From a bacterium (GTDB lineage Bacteria > Babelota > Babeliae > Babelales > UBA12409), in NCBI GenBank assembly GCA_018660415.1, contig JABJKG010000001.1, positions 15,530 through 79,529 on the forward strand: DNA of 64,000 nucleotides, given 5' to 3'. The position numbers and the translations under genes were made by a program. The notes under the pieces were generated by a model. It was not told the origin of the DNA, searched no databases, and saw nothing but the letters and a program-made list of their open reading frames with translations. Positions within the stretch are counted from its first letter, which is position 1. Every line of letters begins with the position of its first letter. Positions 31,691-37,149 of this stretch are shown piece after piece.

Positions 31691-32229
31691 TACATACAAT
31701 TGGCGGAATGCTAAATTCCACTACTTAGCTAGAATTTAACATTCGGCCAATAACAAGAATTGTTTGAAAGTTGCAACTTTCACTTAAACTCTCTATAATC
31801 TCTTTTAATGAAATCTAATAATCTTATAACCAAAGGAAACAGTATGACTTTTGCTACTAATTCTATGCTTCACGCACTGCTAGTCCTTATTGACACTTGG
31901 TTTCCTTTTATTGGTTAATAAAAGATTTTTTCAATCATAATATCTTTCTCAATTCATTATATCCAATCCTTAATTTAAAAGTTATATAATGGTTAAGTTA
32001 ACACTAAAGACAACCTCCAAATCACGCGTAGCTTCCCAGCATCACCCCATTCAAGCAATCTAATTCTAGCGCAAGCAATACCGCTACGAGTGCCCCAGTC
32101 CTATCGTTTGAAATGCAAAGGAAATTTGTTTTCTTTGTTGAACTGTTGATAACCATAGACAAGCAAGCGTCAAAAAAACGTACGCGTACATCAAGCACCT
32201 CAAAAAAGAGGGTAAAAATTAACTTAGAT

Positions 32230-32273
32230 AAAAACAACATGGGCCTGTTAGTATATAGGCCCATGTTGTTTTT
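32230..32273. repeat. Perfect 17-bp-stem hairpin upstream of the Rep-like gene (candidate origin or terminator)
   Basis: AAAAACAACATGGGCCT-gttagtatat-AGGCCCATGTTGTTTTT, ending 57 nt before the ATG at 32331. Confidence 0.6.
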
Positions 32274-32330
32274 ATTAGTATCTACTTTATCCTTAGTAGT
32301 AGGTAAGGATAACTTAAAGGTAATACATCA

Positions 32331-33452
32331 ATGATCGACACCATCGTTCTAGCATTAAGTCCCGACATGTATCAAGTCACAGAACCAGATAGGTTTGTCC
32401 CATCTGCTCGATGGATTCTGTCTCGAGTTAAGACTATAGGTCATGGCATTCGATCCAAACAAAACCCTACCAAAAAAGAATTACTACAGGGAGTTTACAA
32501 GCCTCGGCTTACTCTTTCCCAACGCATAAGCCCACTCGGCCACACAGAAGCCATGCTCAAAATTGAACTGTCTTTACCAAAGCTTGTTTTTGGAAATAAC
32601 TTTGAAGAACTTCGTTATAAAGATTTTGAAGCACTCAACCAAAAGCTAGTCTCTACTTTAAAAATAATGGGCGTTATTGTTTCTCCTACTATCCTGGCTT
32701 CCACACCCGTATCTGCAATTCACTACTCGAAAAACATTCCCTTAATTGATGGTTCGATTCCATATCACTACATCAACAAAATCAAAGAAGCCAATGTACA
32801 GCAGTCACTCGACACCAATCAAACAGATTATCGTAATGAGGGTCATAGCTTTAAGTGGCATTGCAATTCATACGAAATTGTTTTTTATGACAAAATTAAA
32901 GATCTTGAAAAGGCCAAGGTAAGCAGTAAGCGCTCTTTAGAAAAGGATGGCATCTTGCAACTCAAGCTGATTGATCTTTTTAAAAAGAGAAAGCGATTTG
33001 AAGTTTTACGGATGGAAGTTCGCTTAAACAAGCGACAAAAGCTCAAGCACCTATTCAAAAAGCTTAATATCAAAGCAGACCTCACTTTTAAAAAACTTTT
33101 CAAACCAGCTATCGCCAAAAAAGTTTTATTACTCTACCTAGATGAACTTGAAGGCAAGCGTCCCGCATTACTCGACTATAAGGCGGCTAATGACAAGGCG
33201 TTGCTCGCTGCCTTAATTGTTAACAATCCAGAACTGAGCCCTCAACGCCTTTTAACCTTGTACGGTTTAAGGAAAGCTTTGGATGTAACAACAGCACGAG
33301 AACTCAGGATCATGCTCAACAATAAACGAATACCATCCAAGCTACTTGCTGATGCCAATCAACTCAATCTACCGGGATTACACCGCCCATTTAAGGTGAT
33401 ACGAAAGCACTTGATGAAATTTAAAGCAATAGGAAAAAATCTACTTATCTGA
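32331..33452 (+). CDS. Rolling-circle replication initiator-like protein (filamentous-phage gpII / Phage_CRI-like)
   Basis: The N-terminus MIDTIVLAL resembles recalled Ff gpII MIDMLVLRL. SYEIVFYDKIKDLEK resembles the gpII Tyr-x-Lys block, and FEVLRMEVRLNKRQKLK resembles gpII VRFEARIKTRYLK. By-eye comparison from memory only. Confidence 0.5.
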   Translation: MIDTIVLALSPDMYQVTEPDRFVPSARWILSRVKTIGHGIRSKQNPTKKELLQGVYKPRLTLSQRISPLGHTEAMLKIELSLPKLVFGNNFEELRYKDFEALNQKLVSTLKIMGVIVSPTILASTPVSAIHYSKNIPLIDGSIPYHYINKIKEANVQQSLDTNQTDYRNEGHSFKWHCNSYEIVFYDKIKDLEKAKVSSKRSLEKDGILQLKLIDLFKKRKRFEVLRMEVRLNKRQKLKHLFKKLNIKADLTFKKLFKPAIAKKVLLLYLDELEGKRPALLDYKAANDKALLAALIVNNPELSPQRLLTLYGLRKALDVTTARELRIMLNNKRIPSKLLADANQLNLPGLHRPFKVIRKHLMKFKAIGKNLLI

Positions 33453-33500
33453 TATGATTTAGAAAAAATCTAATACTGAAAACAATTAAGGCTCCTTAAC

Positions 33501-35104: not shown

Positions 35105-35448
35105 TCCGTAAGGCTTGGTGTTATAATCAATTCAAATCCATTTTGCTCATTCTCTATGGTAATTTTAGCCATCTGATTGATTGAAGTTTTAAAAACTGGA
35201 TGGGATACTAAATTCCCACTCTCCCATATCTCCACGGTTATTTCGATACTGTTTGAATTCTCGATCGCATGTATCCCTATCTTTGTATCACTATTTATAC
35301 AAACACCGTTGCCATCTGCATCTAATATGATTTGGTCGCTAAAGCTTTGCTCCTGATCTTGGTTATGTGAAGAATACCCCACATCCATCTTGAAACTAGC
35401 TTGGGCAACGCTGAAACTTAAAAGCAAACCGAAAAAAATCTTTTTCAT
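35101..35448 (-). CDS. Hypothetical small secreted protein
   Basis: Signal peptide MKKIFFGLLLSFSVAQA. 115 aa. Confidence 0.4.
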   Translation of the reverse strand: MKKIFFGLLLSFSVAQASFKMDVGYSSHNQDQEQSFSDQIILDADGNGVCINSDTKIGIHAIENSNSIEITVEIWESGNLVSHPVFKTSINQMAKITIENEQNGFELIITPSLTD

Positions 35449-35626
35449 GTTTTTGTCCTATCAAATTAAAAGTAACATTTCGTAAAAAACAGCATAACAT
35501 TAATATCATTTTTTTCTAATAGGTTCTTAACTAACAATACTTCAAAACACCTAGGATTATTAATAGTAATCTACGTCATTTTTGGTAAAATAATTAAAAG
35601 TCATCTTTAACCTTTTGGAAAGTATA

Positions 35627-37084
35627 ATGAAAGCCATCCTTATTGCTCGTGTTAGTACCGAAGAACAAAAAGAAGCTGGCAATTCTCTTCCAGCACAAAT
35701 CGCTCGCCTAGAAGCATATTGCAAAAACAAAGGTTTTCCAATAATGGAAATCTGCAGTTTTGATGAAAGTGCCTACTATAATGACCGCACAGAATTCGAT
35801 CGCATTATTGATTTCATCTTGAGTCAAACTGACAAAATAGCCATCTGCTGCGACAAAGTAGACAGGATAACAAGAAATATTTTTGATACACGAATATCTA
35901 CCCTTTATGAAAAAGCCCTCAAAGGTGAACTGGAATTACACTTCGTATCCGATGGACAAGTCATTAACAGTACAATCTCTGCTGTTGAAAAATTTCAATT
36001 CAGTATCAACTTAGGATTGGCAAAATACTATTCTGATGCCATCAGTGACAACGTTAAGCGCGCACAAGAACAAAAACTTCGTAAAGGCGAGTGGCTAGCT
36101 AAAGCACCGTTTGGGTATAAAAACATTAAAAAGGATGATGGTGCCACAGATGTCATTGTAGAAGAATACCAAGCACAGATTATCAAAAAAACATTTGAGC
36201 TCTATGCAACAGGAACCTTCTCAATGGACCTACTCCTAAAAAAACTAAAAATTGAGCATAATGTTTCGTGGCCAAAAGGAACTCTTGGAAAAATACTGAA
36301 CAACCCTTTTTATTATGGAGTCATGCTTGTAAAAGGTAAAAAATACTCACATCGCTATCCCCCACTAATCTCTCTGGATCTTTTTAACAAGGTACAACAA
36401 GTCAAAGAAGTGTTTAATAAAAAACCTGTTAAATATGCAGGCAAAGCATATGTCTATCGTGGCCTACTTCGCTGTGGGCACTGTGACCTATCCATCACTC
36501 CTGAACAACACAAAGGCTATATCTACTACCATTGCACCCAATACAAAGGTAAACACAATGCTAAGTGGCTCCGAGAGGAGACAATTACCAAACAGCTTGG
36601 ACAAGTATTTAAAAAAATGACAATCCCCACAAAAATCGTGGATGAAATAGTTGAAAACCTAAATACTCTCCAACAGGACAAGGTCGACTTTTATCAACGA
36701 GATTTAGACAAGTTCACCAAAGAGCAAAAATCCCTAACCAAGATGCTAGACAATTTATACCTCGATAAACTCAAAGGGAGTATTACTGAGAGCGACTATG
36801 ACAAATTCTACCAATCACTACACGATCAGCTCATCACTATTAACAGTCGTCTCGAACAGTTAGAAGAATCTGACGATAACTACTTTACTACCGCTAAGTA
36901 TGTACTTTCCCTGGCTAACAAGGCTCAGGAATTATTTGAAAGTTCTGAAGTTGATGAAAGAAGGCAATTAATCAACCTATTACTATCGAACGTAAGAGTC
37001 GAAGACGAATACGTGCTCTACGACGTACAAAAGCCCTTCGATCTGATAGTAAATTGTTCTGATGGTCAACTATGGCGGGGCTGA
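35627..37084 (+). CDS. Large serine recombinase
   Basis: N-terminal resolvase motif MKAILIARVSTEEQ, a recombinase domain, a zinc-ribbon-like CGHCDL...YYHCTQY and a C-terminal coiled coil. The stop lies inside tRNA-Asp. Confidence 0.85.
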   Translation: MKAILIARVSTEEQKEAGNSLPAQIARLEAYCKNKGFPIMEICSFDESAYYNDRTEFDRIIDFILSQTDKIAICCDKVDRITRNIFDTRISTLYEKALKGELELHFVSDGQVINSTISAVEKFQFSINLGLAKYYSDAISDNVKRAQEQKLRKGEWLAKAPFGYKNIKKDDGATDVIVEEYQAQIIKKTFELYATGTFSMDLLLKKLKIEHNVSWPKGTLGKILNNPFYYGVMLVKGKKYSHRYPPLISLDLFNKVQQVKEVFNKKPVKYAGKAYVYRGLLRCGHCDLSITPEQHKGYIYYHCTQYKGKHNAKWLREETITKQLGQVFKKMTIPTKIVDEIVENLNTLQQDKVDFYQRDLDKFTKEQKSLTKMLDNLYLDKLKGSITESDYDKFYQSLHDQLITINSRLEQLEESDDNYFTTAKYVLSLANKAQELFESSEVDERRQLINLLLSNVRVEDEYVLYDVQKPFDLIVNCSDGQLWRG

Positions 37085-37149
37085 CGAGACTCGAACTCGC
37101 GGCCTTTCGCGTGACAGGCGAACGCTCTAACCAACTGAGCTACAGCCCC
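37073..37149 (-). tRNA. tRNA-Asp (anticodon GTC)
   Basis: Hand-folded 77-nt cloverleaf GGGGCTG...CTGTCAC...CAGCCCC-G-CCA. Confidence 0.9.

What the first reader, a model, noticed from the sequence alone, without database searches (positions are those of the whole stretch)
31700..37149. Putative integrated rolling-circle element with a large serine recombinase inserted at tRNA-Asp
A gpII/Phage_CRI-like replication initiator (32331..33452) is preceded by a 640-nt non-coding, palindrome-rich region. Four small accessory genes follow: an HExxH protein, a 2H-phosphoesterase-like lipoprotein, a small secreted protein and the recombinase (35627..37084), which ends against a tRNA cluster. Pairing a filamentous-phage-type Rep with a serine rather than tyrosine or Xer-dependent integrase, with no morphogenesis genes, does not fit standard inovirus or ICE templates. 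It may be a small integrative replicon.
Basis: partly seen in the sequence, partly recalled or inferred. Interest (0 to 1): 0.7.

Follow-up and report, generated by a model that had tools for sequence, protein, structure and literature searches.

The report
tRNA-targeting serine-integrase element with Rep
The flagged 5.4 kb is the right-hand core of a 14.4-kb mobile element sitting in the last bases of a tRNA-Asp gene; it belongs to a large, apparently undescribed family in two poorly known bacterial groups (Dependentiae and Patescibacteria), and next to it lies a row of toxin–antitoxin gene cassettes bounded by the same recombination sites.

Summary

- The 373-aa protein has no direct database hit. 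It belongs to a family of at least 1,256 clusters, some members of which pass Pfam's Phage_CRI (gpII) threshold.
- In 56 of 78 related genome loci, an LSR lies downstream on the same strand.
- In about 48 loci, the LSR's last codons abut the CCA end of a tRNA (Asp, Gln, Arg, Glu or Asn).

I could define the att sites. attR is GTCAACTA|TGGCGG-tRNA. attL is TGGCGG-CCCC-TAGTTGACACGTTT at 22,713. The arms are an 8-bp inverted repeat, and the 6 shared nt match each locus's own tRNA. The element is therefore 14,360 bp, not 5.4 kb.

Six more attL-type sites (17.6–22.0 kb) delimit toxin–antitoxin cassettes. These differ cassette by cassette from a close relative.

The "non-coding" leader encodes a conserved small basic protein and holds a terminator-like hairpin plus a promoter-like site.

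No excised circle or attP junction was found, and element depth equals flank depth, so current mobility is unproven.

The closest analogues are SCC elements and tycheposons. I rate it a new variant of a known kind.

The parts
22713..22744 (+). attL of the LSR element. TGGCGG (shared with the tRNA-Asp 3' end), then CCCC, then the P' arm TAGTTGACACGTTT-AGGAACAA. The inferred crossover dinucleotide is GG at 22717-22718.
   Evidence: TAGTTGAC is the exact reverse complement of the P arm at attR. The same architecture, with a prefix matching the local tRNA, occurs in at least 20 independent loci.
22745..31766 (.). Left cargo arm: APH kinase (22847-23725 -), BadF/BcrA-type ATPase (23772-24860 -), MazG (24870-25271 -), His_Phos_1 (25285-25998 -), PAF-AH-like hydrolase (25995-27074 -), DUF6624 (27086-27877 -), GNAT (27909-28583 -), a 123-aa ORF (28833-29204 +), DUF2608 (29297-30307 +), GNAT (30317-30928 -) and a 229-aa membrane protein (31001-31690 +).
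   Evidence: Pfam scans. Relatives carry different but similar-flavoured cargo (APH, GNAT, PAF-AH) at the same position.
31771..31799 (+). Promoter-like site TTGCAA-N17-TATAAT at the left edge of the conserved core block.
   Evidence: Best site in the scan, 10 of 12 matches. TTGCAA is invariant at the start of the block conserved with L001, L004, L010 and L015.
32113..32334 (+). Small basic protein (73 aa; motif F-x-x-F-V-x-L-L-I-x-I-D-K followed by a K/R-rich tail). Its stop overlaps the Rep ATG (ATGA).
   Evidence: The motif was recovered upstream of Rep in 52 loci, including CPR loci, by jackhmmer. It is fused in frame to Rep in some loci, which explains the 450-490-aa homologs.
32228..32293 (+). 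Perfect 19-bp hairpin (32228-32275) with a T-tract, then TTGTTT (32266)-N16-TATCCT (32288). Read as a terminator-like structure plus a Rep promoter-like site; alternatively the rolling-circle origin.
   Evidence: The hairpin segment has z < -2 in 20 of 29 loci, against 14% in controls. TATCTTT occurs in 38 of 75 upstream regions, against 1 of 75 shuffled.
32331..33452 (+). Rep-like protein, 373 aa, a divergent member of the gpII/Phage_CRI superfamily. Invariant residues are E93, K134, N135, G171, Y186 (in F-Y-D-K), K188 and E229 (in R-x-E-x-R).
33501..35448 (.). Right cargo: HExxH protein (33501-34256 +), 2H-phosphoesterase-like lipoprotein (34289-35104 +), and a 115-aa secreted protein (35101-35448 -).
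   Evidence: The HExxH gene (33425-34280) and the 115-aa gene (35078-35578) are absent from the close relative L001.
35627..37084 (+). Large serine recombinase, 485 aa, with catalytic-serine motif A-R-V-S-T. Its last 3 codons and stop are supplied by the tRNA-Asp 3' end.
37051..37082 (+). attR. The P arm AAATTGTTCTGATGGTCAACTA lies inside the LSR 3' coding end and abuts TGGCGG|GGCT of tRNA-Asp. The inferred crossover is GG at 37077-37078.
   Evidence: The junction position is invariant in about 48 loci across five tRNA types.
37073..37149 (-). tRNA-Asp(GTC), the target gene. Its terminal 4-6 nt are element-derived but identical in sequence, so the tRNA gene stays intact.
17604..22712 (+). Array of six further attL-type sites. 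TAGTTGAC starts at 17614 (a degenerate copy), 18827, 19524, 20370, 21169 and 22011. The sites delimit cassettes carrying Fic; ParE + 68-aa ORF; Gp49/HigB-like + HTH; DUF5615 (PIN-like) + DUF433; HI1420-type antidote; and ParE + RelB-like.
   Evidence: Cassette content differs from L001 exactly at the sites. Metagenome contigs break at the sites.

Best explanation
Window 22,719-37,078 is one 14,360-bp site-specific integrative element. It sits in the 3' end of tRNA-Asp(GTC) in a marine Dependentiae (TM6) genome.

How it works:
- A large serine recombinase at the extreme right end, reading outward, catalysed attP x attB recombination.
- The inferred attP is ...GGTCAACTA-TGGC-GG-CCCC-TAGTTGACA..., an 8-bp perfect inverted repeat around a 10-nt spacer.
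- The 2-nt crossover (GG) corresponds to tRNA positions 71-72.
- The element brings its own copy of the last nucleotides (discriminator + CCA), so the tRNA gene stays intact.
- The recombinase gene borrows its stop codon from the tRNA.

The conserved core is small basic protein, then gpII-superfamily Rep, then variable cargo, then LSR.

After excision, which would need a directionality factor (the small basic protein is a candidate), the circle would be copied by rolling-circle replication started by Rep (candidate catalytic residue Tyr186). This would stabilise or amplify it before loss or transfer.

Cargo lies on both sides of Rep. The six further attL-type sites to the left mark recombinase-less toxin-antitoxin cassettes that accreted at the same tRNA. 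In principle the same LSR could excise them, as Ccr recombinases do for tandem SCC-like cassettes.

Shown here: gene content, family-wide synteny, the exact tRNA junction, attL/attR architecture and its co-variation with the target tRNA, family-level empty sites, and cassette-level differences between relatives.

Inferred: the crossover position, excision, replication by Rep, the identity of the directionality factor, and how the array formed.
For: 1. LSR identity: three LSR domains and phrog_95 integrase at 7e-68.

2. Linkage: in 56 of 78 GTDB loci an LSR lies downstream of the Rep homolog on the same strand, 89-8,450 bp away. Minimal pairs have gaps of only about 90-120 bp.

3. Junction: in about 48 loci the conserved LSR C-terminal coding sequence (...GATCGTCAAC-nn) abuts TGG, the complement of the tRNA CCA. 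The tRNA is Asp, Gln, Arg, Glu or Asn.

4. attL: upstream sites read [TGG + 3 or more nt identical to the locus's own tRNA] + TAGTTGAC(R)(Y)(R)TT(Y). TAGTTGAC is the reverse complement of the P arm. This holds in at least 20 independent loci, against a chance of about 0.011 per locus.

5. Crossover position: attL/attR identity stops after 6 nt in Dependentiae loci. In CPR loci the native CCA-less flank is kept at attL while attR reads TGG. Together these bracket the crossover to spacer positions 3-6, and the dyad centre falls on positions 5-6.

6. Empty sites: the same conserved trailer (...GCCAGACGAAGC...GCGAAGAC) abuts intact tRNAs with no element nearby (e.g. L150 tRNA-Glu, L167). In occupied loci it is separated from the tRNA by the element (L016, L078, L023, L059).

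7. Mobility across lineages: the family is multi-copy within genomes and occurs in both Dependentiae and several Patescibacteria classes. LSR relatives use different tRNAs. Cargo is completely different between elements with 83-95% identical cores.

8. Rep:
- The family has at least 1,256 clusters at 50% identity.
- 13 of 116 members hit PF05144, two above the gathering cut-off across profile positions 1-220.
- 27 of 116 hit phrog_702 'replication protein'.
- The high-confidence model (pLDDT 94.6) matches unnamed viral proteins in BFVD at probability 1.0.
- An invariant Tyr lies in F-Y-D-K.

9. Array: the window and L001 share the Fic and ParE cassettes, then differ by whole cassettes exactly at the sites. 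The cassettes carry type II toxin-antitoxin modules.

10. Precedents: Ccr LSRs excise tandem recombinase-less cassettes (PMC11470126). Tycheposons accrete at tRNAs (10.1101/2020.12.28.424599).
Against: - No attP junction was found in 241 million JGI metagenome records with a strict pattern. The 21 IMG/VR hits to a looser pattern were chance matches.
- No Rep relative was found in IMG/VR, phage or plasmid collections.
- In eight marine metagenomes the element has the same depth as its flanks, and no attB or attP joints appear. Only assembled contigs could be examined, and these hide rare forms.
- No empty tRNA-Asp site was found for this species. Its close relatives L001, L007 and L085 are all occupied.
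- The window's Rep has no direct hit to any Rep family, and no PDB fold match.
- No origin or nick site was identified. The conserved hairpin and 9-mer are explained at least as well by a terminator plus a promoter.
- Serial attP x attB integration does not by itself explain internal sites whose left arm is not a P arm. The window lineage also lacks the conserved B-arm trailer.
Confidence: 0.68

Rival explanations
1. One reading: a small (about 5.4 kb) integrative rolling-circle replicon spanning 31,700-37,149, with attL somewhere in the 640-nt leader.
For: DNA homology with the close relative L001 begins at 31,767, just left of the core promoter. Minimal Rep-LSR pairs exist in other genomes.
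Against: There is no P'-type arm or tRNA 3' fragment in 31,700-32,330. The only attL-type sites are at 22,723 and further left. In other loci attL also lies 1.6-8.4 kb upstream of Rep. The 31,767 boundary coincides with a promoter and with mosaic cargo exchange, not with an att site.
Confidence: 0.05
2. The Rep-like protein is a relaxase, not a replication initiator. The element would then be an integrative mobilizable element (IME) that is nicked at an oriT and transferred through another element's conjugation pore.
For: Streptococcal IMEs pair serine or tyrosine recombinases with relaxases that are related to rolling-circle initiators (Rep_trans/MobT, Rep_2, PHA00330) (PMC5357655). The element encodes no helicase, single-strand origin or other replication function that I could recognise.
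Against: No coupling protein, TcpA or T4SS gene lies in or near any of the elements examined. The hosts are Dependentiae and Patescibacteria; from my own knowledge conjugative systems are not a known feature of these groups, and this was not tested here. The family's only database links are to phage replication proteins.
Confidence: 0.12
3. A fixed, decaying or domesticated island. The element integrated long ago and no longer moves. The LSR and Rep are relics or serve a host function, and the repeated sites are fossil scars.
For: Element depth equals flank depth and no alternative joints appear in eight metagenomes. There is no attP anywhere in assemblies. All close relatives are occupied at the same site. 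Decayed copies exist elsewhere: truncated LSRs in L011, L017, L031, L047 and L111.
Against: LSR, Rep and the small protein are intact, with invariant catalytic-type residues. Six of the seven att sites in the window are nearly identical over about 35 nt, which is not what fossils look like. Cassette content changed between the window and L001, which are about 80% identical, exactly at the sites. Cargo turns over completely between near-identical cores.
Confidence: 0.15

Closest known systems
SCC / SCCmec elements and tandem SCC-like cassettes (Ccr large serine recombinases, Staphylococcus)
   Same: - Driven by a large serine recombinase.
- Inserts in the last bases of a conserved housekeeping gene and restores it.
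- Carries accessory, defence or resistance-type cargo.
- Tandem cassettes lacking their own recombinase are each bounded by att sites, and the resident LSR can excise them singly or together (PMC11470126).
- From my own knowledge, SCCmec also carries replication genes (Cch helicase).
- The window's LSR gives sub-threshold NCBIfam hits to CcrB and CcrA.
   Different: - The target is a tRNA 3' end, not rlmH.
- There is one LSR, not a CcrA/CcrB pair.
- The replication gene is a gpII-type initiator, not an MCM-like helicase.
- The LSR sits at the very end of the element with its stop codon in the target.
- The hosts are Dependentiae and Patescibacteria.
- NCBIfam scores are far below the Ccr cut-offs (81 vs 900 bits), so it is not a Ccr.
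Tycheposons (Prochlorococcus; 10.1101/2020.12.28.424599)
   Same: - tRNA-targeting integrative elements with an integrase at one end, a small replication module and up to 10 kb or more of cargo.
- New arrivals push older ones into an island.
- Remnants and partial tRNAs mark older events.
- Marine host with a streamlined genome.
- A minority (27 of 937) use a large serine recombinase.
   Different: - Tycheposons are defined by a lineage-specific tyrosine recombinase and by helicase, primase or polymerase replication genes.
- Their integrase faces inward.
- Their repeats are long partial tRNAs.
- Here the integrase is an outward-facing LSR, the repeat is only 6 nt of tRNA plus an inverted-repeat arm, and Rep is gpII-like.
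Integrative and mobilizable elements with RCR-initiator-type relaxases (streptococcal IMEs; PMC5357655, PMC5704250)
   Same: Small integrated elements that pair a site-specific recombinase (sometimes a serine recombinase) with a protein from a rolling-circle initiator family (Rep_trans, Rep_2, PHA00330), plus cargo.
   Different: Those proteins come with coupling-protein or TcpA genes and with conjugative hosts. Nothing of that kind is seen here. The host phyla, target site and Rep family also differ.
Filamentous-phage gpII (Pfam PF05144 Phage_CRI) and integrating inoviruses
   Same: Rep belongs to the same superfamily by transitive profile hits. It has an invariant Tyr in a YDK-type motif; the link between that motif and catalysis is from my own knowledge, not tested here.
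   Different: There are no morphogenesis, coat or Zot-like genes anywhere in the element. No relative occurs in phage or IMG/VR collections. The window protein itself is below detection for PF05144.

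Membership tests
Large serine recombinases (integrase type) | N-terminal resolvase catalytic domain with the catalytic-serine motif | tested here: met
   PF00239 at 1e-18, residues 7-160. The sequence begins MKAILIARVSTEEQ.
Large serine recombinases (integrase type) | C-terminal Recombinase domain plus zinc ribbon | tested here: met
   PF07508 at 1.4e-10 and PF13408 at 6e-7, both above their cut-offs. phrog_95 'integrase' at 7e-68 over residues 2-474.
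Large serine recombinases (integrase type) | attP made of imperfect inverted-repeat half-sites around a 2-bp crossover; attL and attR are hybrids without a long direct repeat | tested here: met
   GTCAACTA and TAGTTGAC arms flank a 10-nt spacer. Only 6 nt are shared between attL and attR. The pattern is reproduced in at least 20 loci. The crossover itself is inferred.
Large serine recombinases (integrase type) | Catalyses attP x attB recombination | not testable with these tools
   Needs an in vivo or in vitro recombination assay.
Phage_CRI / gpII replication initiators (PF05144) | Score above Pfam's gathering cut-off (21.7 bits) | tested here: not met
   The window protein has no hit at all. 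Relatives P0262 (27.1 bits) and P0266 (23.0 bits) pass, and 13 of 116 members hit. This supports superfamily-level kinship only.
Phage_CRI / gpII replication initiators (PF05144) | Conserved catalytic tyrosine and acidic residues | tested here: inconclusive
   Y186, E93 and E229 are invariant, and D3, D161, D187 nearly so, across 116 diverse members. Their equivalence to gpII's active site was not established, because no solved gpII structure turned up.
Phage_CRI / gpII replication initiators (PF05144) | Nicks a cognate origin and primes rolling-circle replication | not testable with these tools
   A candidate hairpin and 9-mer lie upstream of Rep, but they are equally well read as a terminator plus a promoter.
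Inovirus / filamentous prophage | Morphogenesis ATPase (pI/Zot) and coat protein genes | tested here: not met
   No such Pfam or PHROG hit appears among the element's proteins.
SCC elements | Ccr-family recombinase(s) | tested here: not met
   CcrB scores 80.9 bits against a cut-off of 900. CcrA scores 65.9 against 700.
SCC elements | Integration at the 3' end of rlmH (orfX) | tested here: not met
   The target is the tRNA-Asp 3' end.
Tycheposons | Lineage-specific tyrosine recombinase (rarely an LSR), inward-facing at one end, with shared hallmark replication genes | tested here: not met
   Here the integrase is an LSR facing outward, and Rep is gpII-like rather than a helicase or primase (definition).
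Integrons | IntI tyrosine recombinase, attI, and cassettes ending in folded attC sites | tested here: not met
   The recombinase is a serine recombinase. The repeated sites are attL-type hybrids of the LSR system.
DNA invertase / local switch | Small serine recombinase acting on inverted sites that flank an invertible segment | tested here: not met
   The protein is a 485-aa LSR. All att-type sites are in direct orientation on the + strand. The phrog_125 invertase hit covers only the catalytic domain.

The most novel reading that the evidence does not exclude
The LSR works as more than an integrase for its own element. It would run a cassette platform at the tRNA.

On this reading, recombinase-less units with a P'-type left end and a short AT-rich right end are captured and released at attL-type sites. 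These units are mostly toxin-antitoxin modules. Capture could happen in either of two ways:
- while the Rep-maintained element is transiently excised, after which it re-integrates next to the tRNA; or
- by exchange between two attL-type sites.

That would make it a serine-recombinase analogue of an integron or SCC cassette array, in Dependentiae. It would also imply a family of naturally retargetable LSRs whose tRNA specificity is set by the 6-nt spacer of attP.
Probability: 0.25. Interest if true: 0.8.

Novelty: new variant of a known kind. Interest (0 to 1): 0.62.

Why it matters
Dependentiae and Patescibacteria are reduced, host-dependent bacteria, and their means of gene exchange are almost unknown. 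I found no paper describing this element type.

- **A major vehicle for accessory genes.** The Rep protein family has at least 1,256 sequence clusters. A family that large, crossing both phyla and carrying kinases, acetyltransferases, hydrolases and toxin-antitoxin modules, would be a main carrier of their accessory genes.
- **Testable recombinases.** The att sites can be read straight from sequence for dozens of LSRs that target five different tRNAs. This gives a ready-made, naturally diversified panel of serine integrases with predicted attP/attB pairs, useful for studying how LSR target specificity evolves.
- **A second example of cassette arrays.** The tandem cassette array suggests that SCC-like cassette mobilisation by serine recombinases is not peculiar to staphylococci.
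- **A new branch of a known superfamily.** The Rep family is a large, unannotated branch of the gpII superfamily and deserves a family model of its own.

Tried and rejected
1. Direct family assignment of the 373-aa protein. Nothing was found in Pfam, PHROGs, NCBIfam, PDB sequence or PDB profile searches.

2. First structure model from 47 close homologs. It was poor (pLDDT 69) and gave meaningless Foldseek hits, so I discarded it. The second model, from 116 diverse sequences, was good, but the PDB held no similar fold.

3. tblastn of Rep against phage and plasmid collections, and a Rep scan of IMG/VR. No match.

4. A displaced tRNA 3' fragment of 12-40 nt in the window. None. The true repeat is only 6 nt.

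5. Naive search for the reverse complement of the last 27 nt of the LSR within 1.5 kb upstream of Rep. This gave noise only, because attL lies much further left.

6. nhmmer of the leader against all loci. Only close relatives matched.

7. Loose attP pattern in IMG/VR. The 21 hits were all chance matches, with no Rep, LSR or extended arm. The strict attP pattern in JGI metagenomes gave 0 hits.

8. Contigs of eight public metagenomes laid on the element and on the array. No excision, circle or cassette-deletion joints appeared. The listed joints are tRNA cross-matches or have 20-nt sides only.

9. Small contigs carrying close Rep homologs (L085-L087) as possible circles. They are integrated fragments or unrelated contexts.

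10. RNAalifold on the hairpin region. It gave no consensus because hairpin position and loop length vary. I replaced it with per-locus MFE z-scores.

11. The idea that GCGAAGAC is the end of a second mobile element. Largely rejected: it abuts tRNAs next to core genes with no recombinase nearby. L111 remains odd.

12. TTATCTTTA as a gpII-type nick site. Not rejected, but the fixed 16-nt spacing from TTGTTT makes a promoter reading at least as good.

Full report
**1. The observation**

- The recombinase (35627-37084) is a bona fide large serine recombinase (LSR). It has Resolvase, Recombinase and Zn_ribbon_recom domains above Pfam thresholds, and it matches phrog_95 'integrase' at 7e-68.
- Its ORF runs 12 nt into the 3' end of tRNA-Asp(GTC), which lies on the opposite strand.
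- The accessory genes fit their descriptions: HELLH in the 251-aa protein; a lipobox and two HxT/S motifs in the 271-aa protein, with a sub-threshold 2H-family hit; and a signal-peptide-like start in the 115-aa protein.
- The 373-aa 'Rep' has no hit in Pfam, PHROGs, NCBIfam or the PDB.

**2. What the 373-aa protein is**

It has more than 1,700 close homologs at about 60-65% identity, mostly from Babeliales/Dependentiae. A full HMM search finds 1,256 clusters at the 50% level.

I scanned 116 diverse members one by one.
- 13 hit PF05144 (Phage_CRI, the N-terminal domain of filamentous-phage gpII).
- Two of them are above Pfam's own cut-off and cover profile positions 1-220.
- 27 hit phrog_702 'replication protein'.

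A model built on the diverse alignment is confident (pLDDT 94.6, pTM 0.92). It finds no PDB fold. It does match unnamed viral proteins in BFVD at probability 1.0.

Y186 (in F-Y-D-K), E93, K134, N135, G171, K188 and E229 are invariant.

Replication activity is inferred.

**3. A conserved module, not a one-off**

In 56 of 78 GTDB loci that encode a homolog, an LSR lies downstream on the same strand, 89 to 8,450 bp away.
- The family is multi-copy in some genomes.
- It also occurs in Patescibacteria: Pacebacteria, Woesebacteria, Levybacteria, Saccharibacteria and Peribacteria MAGs.
- Cores that are 83-95% identical carry entirely different genes between Rep and LSR.
- The window differs from its closest relative (L001/L007, a TM6 MAG) by gene-sized insertions.

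**4. The right end**

In about 48 loci the conserved C-terminal coding sequence of the LSR (...GATCGTCAAC-nn) is followed directly by TGG, the complement of the tRNA's CCA. This holds whether the tRNA is Asp, Gln, Arg, Glu or Asn. Such a fixed register means this junction is a recombination joint.

**5. The left end**

I searched each locus for copies of its own tRNA 3' end. This revealed a recurring upstream site: TGG plus 3-7 nt identical to the local tRNA, followed by TAGTTGAC(R)(Y)(R)TT(Y)-AGGAAC.
- TAGTTGAC is the exact reverse complement of the GTCAACTA that abuts the tRNA at the LSR end.
- At least 20 independent loci show it. The chance of the tRNA-specific prefix alone is about 0.011 per locus.
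- The reconstructed attP is GTCAACTA-TGGC-NN-(4 nt)-TAGTTGAC.
- In Dependentiae loci, identity between attL and attR ends after 6 nt.
- In CPR loci, attL keeps a native CCA-less flank while attR reads TGG.
- Together with the dyad centre, this places the 2-nt crossover at spacer positions 5-6, which correspond to tRNA nucleotides 71-72.

Elements measured from attL to attR span about 6-14 kb. In the window, attL is at 22,713-22,744 and the element is 14,360 bp.

**6. Empty sites**

In many loci the B arm left of attL is a conserved sequence (...TGGC-NNN-GCCAG-NCGWAGC...GCGAAGAC). A metagenome scan shows this motif directly abutting intact tRNAs of many kinds. Those tRNAs sit beside core genes, with no LSR or Rep nearby.

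Empty examples (L150 tRNA-Glu, L167 tRNA-Arg) and occupied examples (L016, L078, L023, L059) align as expected for attB versus attL. This is family-level evidence. No empty tRNA-Asp allele of this species was found.

**7. The leader**

- The block conserved with relatives starts at an invariant TTGCAA-N17-TATAAT (31771-31799).
- A 73-aa ORF (32113-32334) encodes a motif (FFxLLIxIDRR plus a basic tail) found upstream of Rep in 52 loci, and sometimes fused to Rep.
- The perfect 19-bp hairpin (32228-32275) belongs to a position-conserved, sequence-variable hairpin class. Its z-score is below -2 in 20 of 29 loci, against 14% of controls.
- The hairpin is followed by a T-tract and by (T/G)TATCTTTA about 45 nt before the Rep ATG. 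TATCTTT occurs in 38 of 75 upstream regions, against 1 of 75 shuffled.
- TTGTTT-N16-TATCCT fits a promoter. An origin is not excluded.

**8. The array**

The window holds six more attL-type sites in the same orientation, at 17614 (degenerate), 18827, 19524, 20370, 21169 and 22011.
- The segments between them carry Fic, ParE + partner, Gp49/HigB-like + HTH, DUF5615 + DUF433, an HI1420-type antidote, and ParE + RelB-like.
- L001 shares the first two cassettes at 82-88% nt identity. It then has one different cassette where the window has four, and homology resumes only at the sites.
- No P-arm/P'-arm (attP-type) junction exists in any of the 87 chromosomal loci, so simple serial integration into attL or attR is unlikely.
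- The closest precedent is tandem recombinase-less SCC-like cassettes excised by Ccr LSRs (PMC11470126).
- How the array forms is unresolved (notebook).

**9. Is it moving now?**

I found no evidence that it is.
- There is no attP junction in 241 million JGI records.
- Nothing turned up in IMG/VR.
- Element and flanks have equal depth, with no alternative joints, in eight marine metagenomes.

Those data are assembled contigs, which drop rare variants. Absence is therefore weak evidence against low-frequency excision, but real evidence against an abundant free replicon.

**10. Comparison and verdict**

The element works like SCC elements and tycheposons. It has a site-specific recombinase at one end, a small replication module and exchangeable cargo. 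It inserts at, and restores, the 3' end of a housekeeping gene, and it builds a tandem array there.

It is not a member of either family, nor of inoviruses, integrons or invertase switches (see the membership table).

The distinctive combination is:
- an outward-facing LSR whose stop codon comes from the tRNA;
- a 6-nt tRNA-matched spacer between 8-bp inverted arms;
- a gpII-superfamily Rep with a conserved small partner protein;
- a distribution across Dependentiae and Patescibacteria.

I found no paper describing this.

I rate it a new variant of a known kind. Interest is 0.62. Confidence in the integrative-element model with the stated att sites is 0.68. Rep-driven replication and active cassette exchange remain hypotheses.

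Noticed in passing
L109-L188 (e.g. L150:2041-2072, L167:2108-2140); also the B arms of attL in L004, L010, L015, L016, L023, L058, L059, L078: A conserved motif of about 45 nt (TGGC-NNN-GCCAG-NCGWAGC-N7-25-GCGAAGAC) directly abuts the CCA end of many different tRNA genes, in at least 120 metagenome contigs of both low and high GC. In GC-rich versions, CAGTCTTCGC...GCGAAGACTG forms a perfect hairpin that starts inside the CCA. The neighbours are core genes. Its function is unknown; it may be a terminator or a processing signal. It is absent at the window's own tRNAs.
   Followed up: partly
L111:3184-4830: A Rep fragment and an LSR truncated after about 200 residues are followed by the tRNA-trailer motif and then tRNA-Asp. 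This puts B-arm-type sequence on the 'wrong' side of an LSR remnant. 40 nt of it are identical to the trailer at tRNA-Arg in L136. The simple model does not explain this.
   Followed up: no
L054:6009 and 19304; also L060, L062, L064-L067, L074, L076, L077, L082: In Patescibacteria loci, attL keeps a native flank without an encoded CCA (AAG/GTG/TTG/TAG + CTCCCCC), while attR reads TGG + CTCCCCC. Integration therefore gives the tRNA-Asn gene an encoded CCA that it did not have before.
   Followed up: partly
window 34265-34288 and 35607-35630: A 24-nt direct repeat (92% identical). The second copy is the leader/RBS of the LSR gene. The first sits at the right edge of the 856-bp window-specific insert that carries the HExxH gene. 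This suggests the insert once lay directly upstream of an LSR gene and moved by recombination between elements.
   Followed up: partly
window 31844-31918: A 24-aa hydrophobic ORF (MTFATNSMLHALLVLIDTWFPFIG) with an RBS, just downstream of the TTGCAA-N17-TATAAT promoter-like site. It is conserved only in the window and L001. It could be a small membrane peptide or a type I toxin-like gene, or nothing.
   Followed up: partly
window 35627-37078 joined to 22719-22790 (predicted circle): In the excised form the LSR ORF would lose the tRNA-supplied stop and extend from 485 to 508 aa (...QLWRPLVDTFRNKQIDFNLHINPIGVTL*). Integrated and excised states would then encode different C-termini.
   Followed up: yes
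window 21162 (also 22610-22745, 19225): In four metagenomes, a contig enters the att-type site at 21162 from a different left-hand sequence (...GAGCACTACATCCC). Other loose ends occur at neighbouring sites. These may be further copies of the site elsewhere in the genome, or strain variants with other cassettes.
   Followed up: no
window 3828-4338: TGCCGGTGCTGA recurs at 3828 and then at 105-nt spacing (4128, 4233, 4338) inside the 329-aa ORF at 3565-4554. This points to a protein with tandem 35-residue repeats.
   Followed up: no
L015:10001-15950, L045:3462-11116; OY969115.1 (L032/L016); OY970172.1 (L041/L023): Two Rep genes lie upstream of a single LSR, or Rep copies sit about 20 kb apart at the same tRNA. 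Whole elements or Rep-bearing remnants also accumulate in tandem, and the distal copies lack an LSR.
   Followed up: partly
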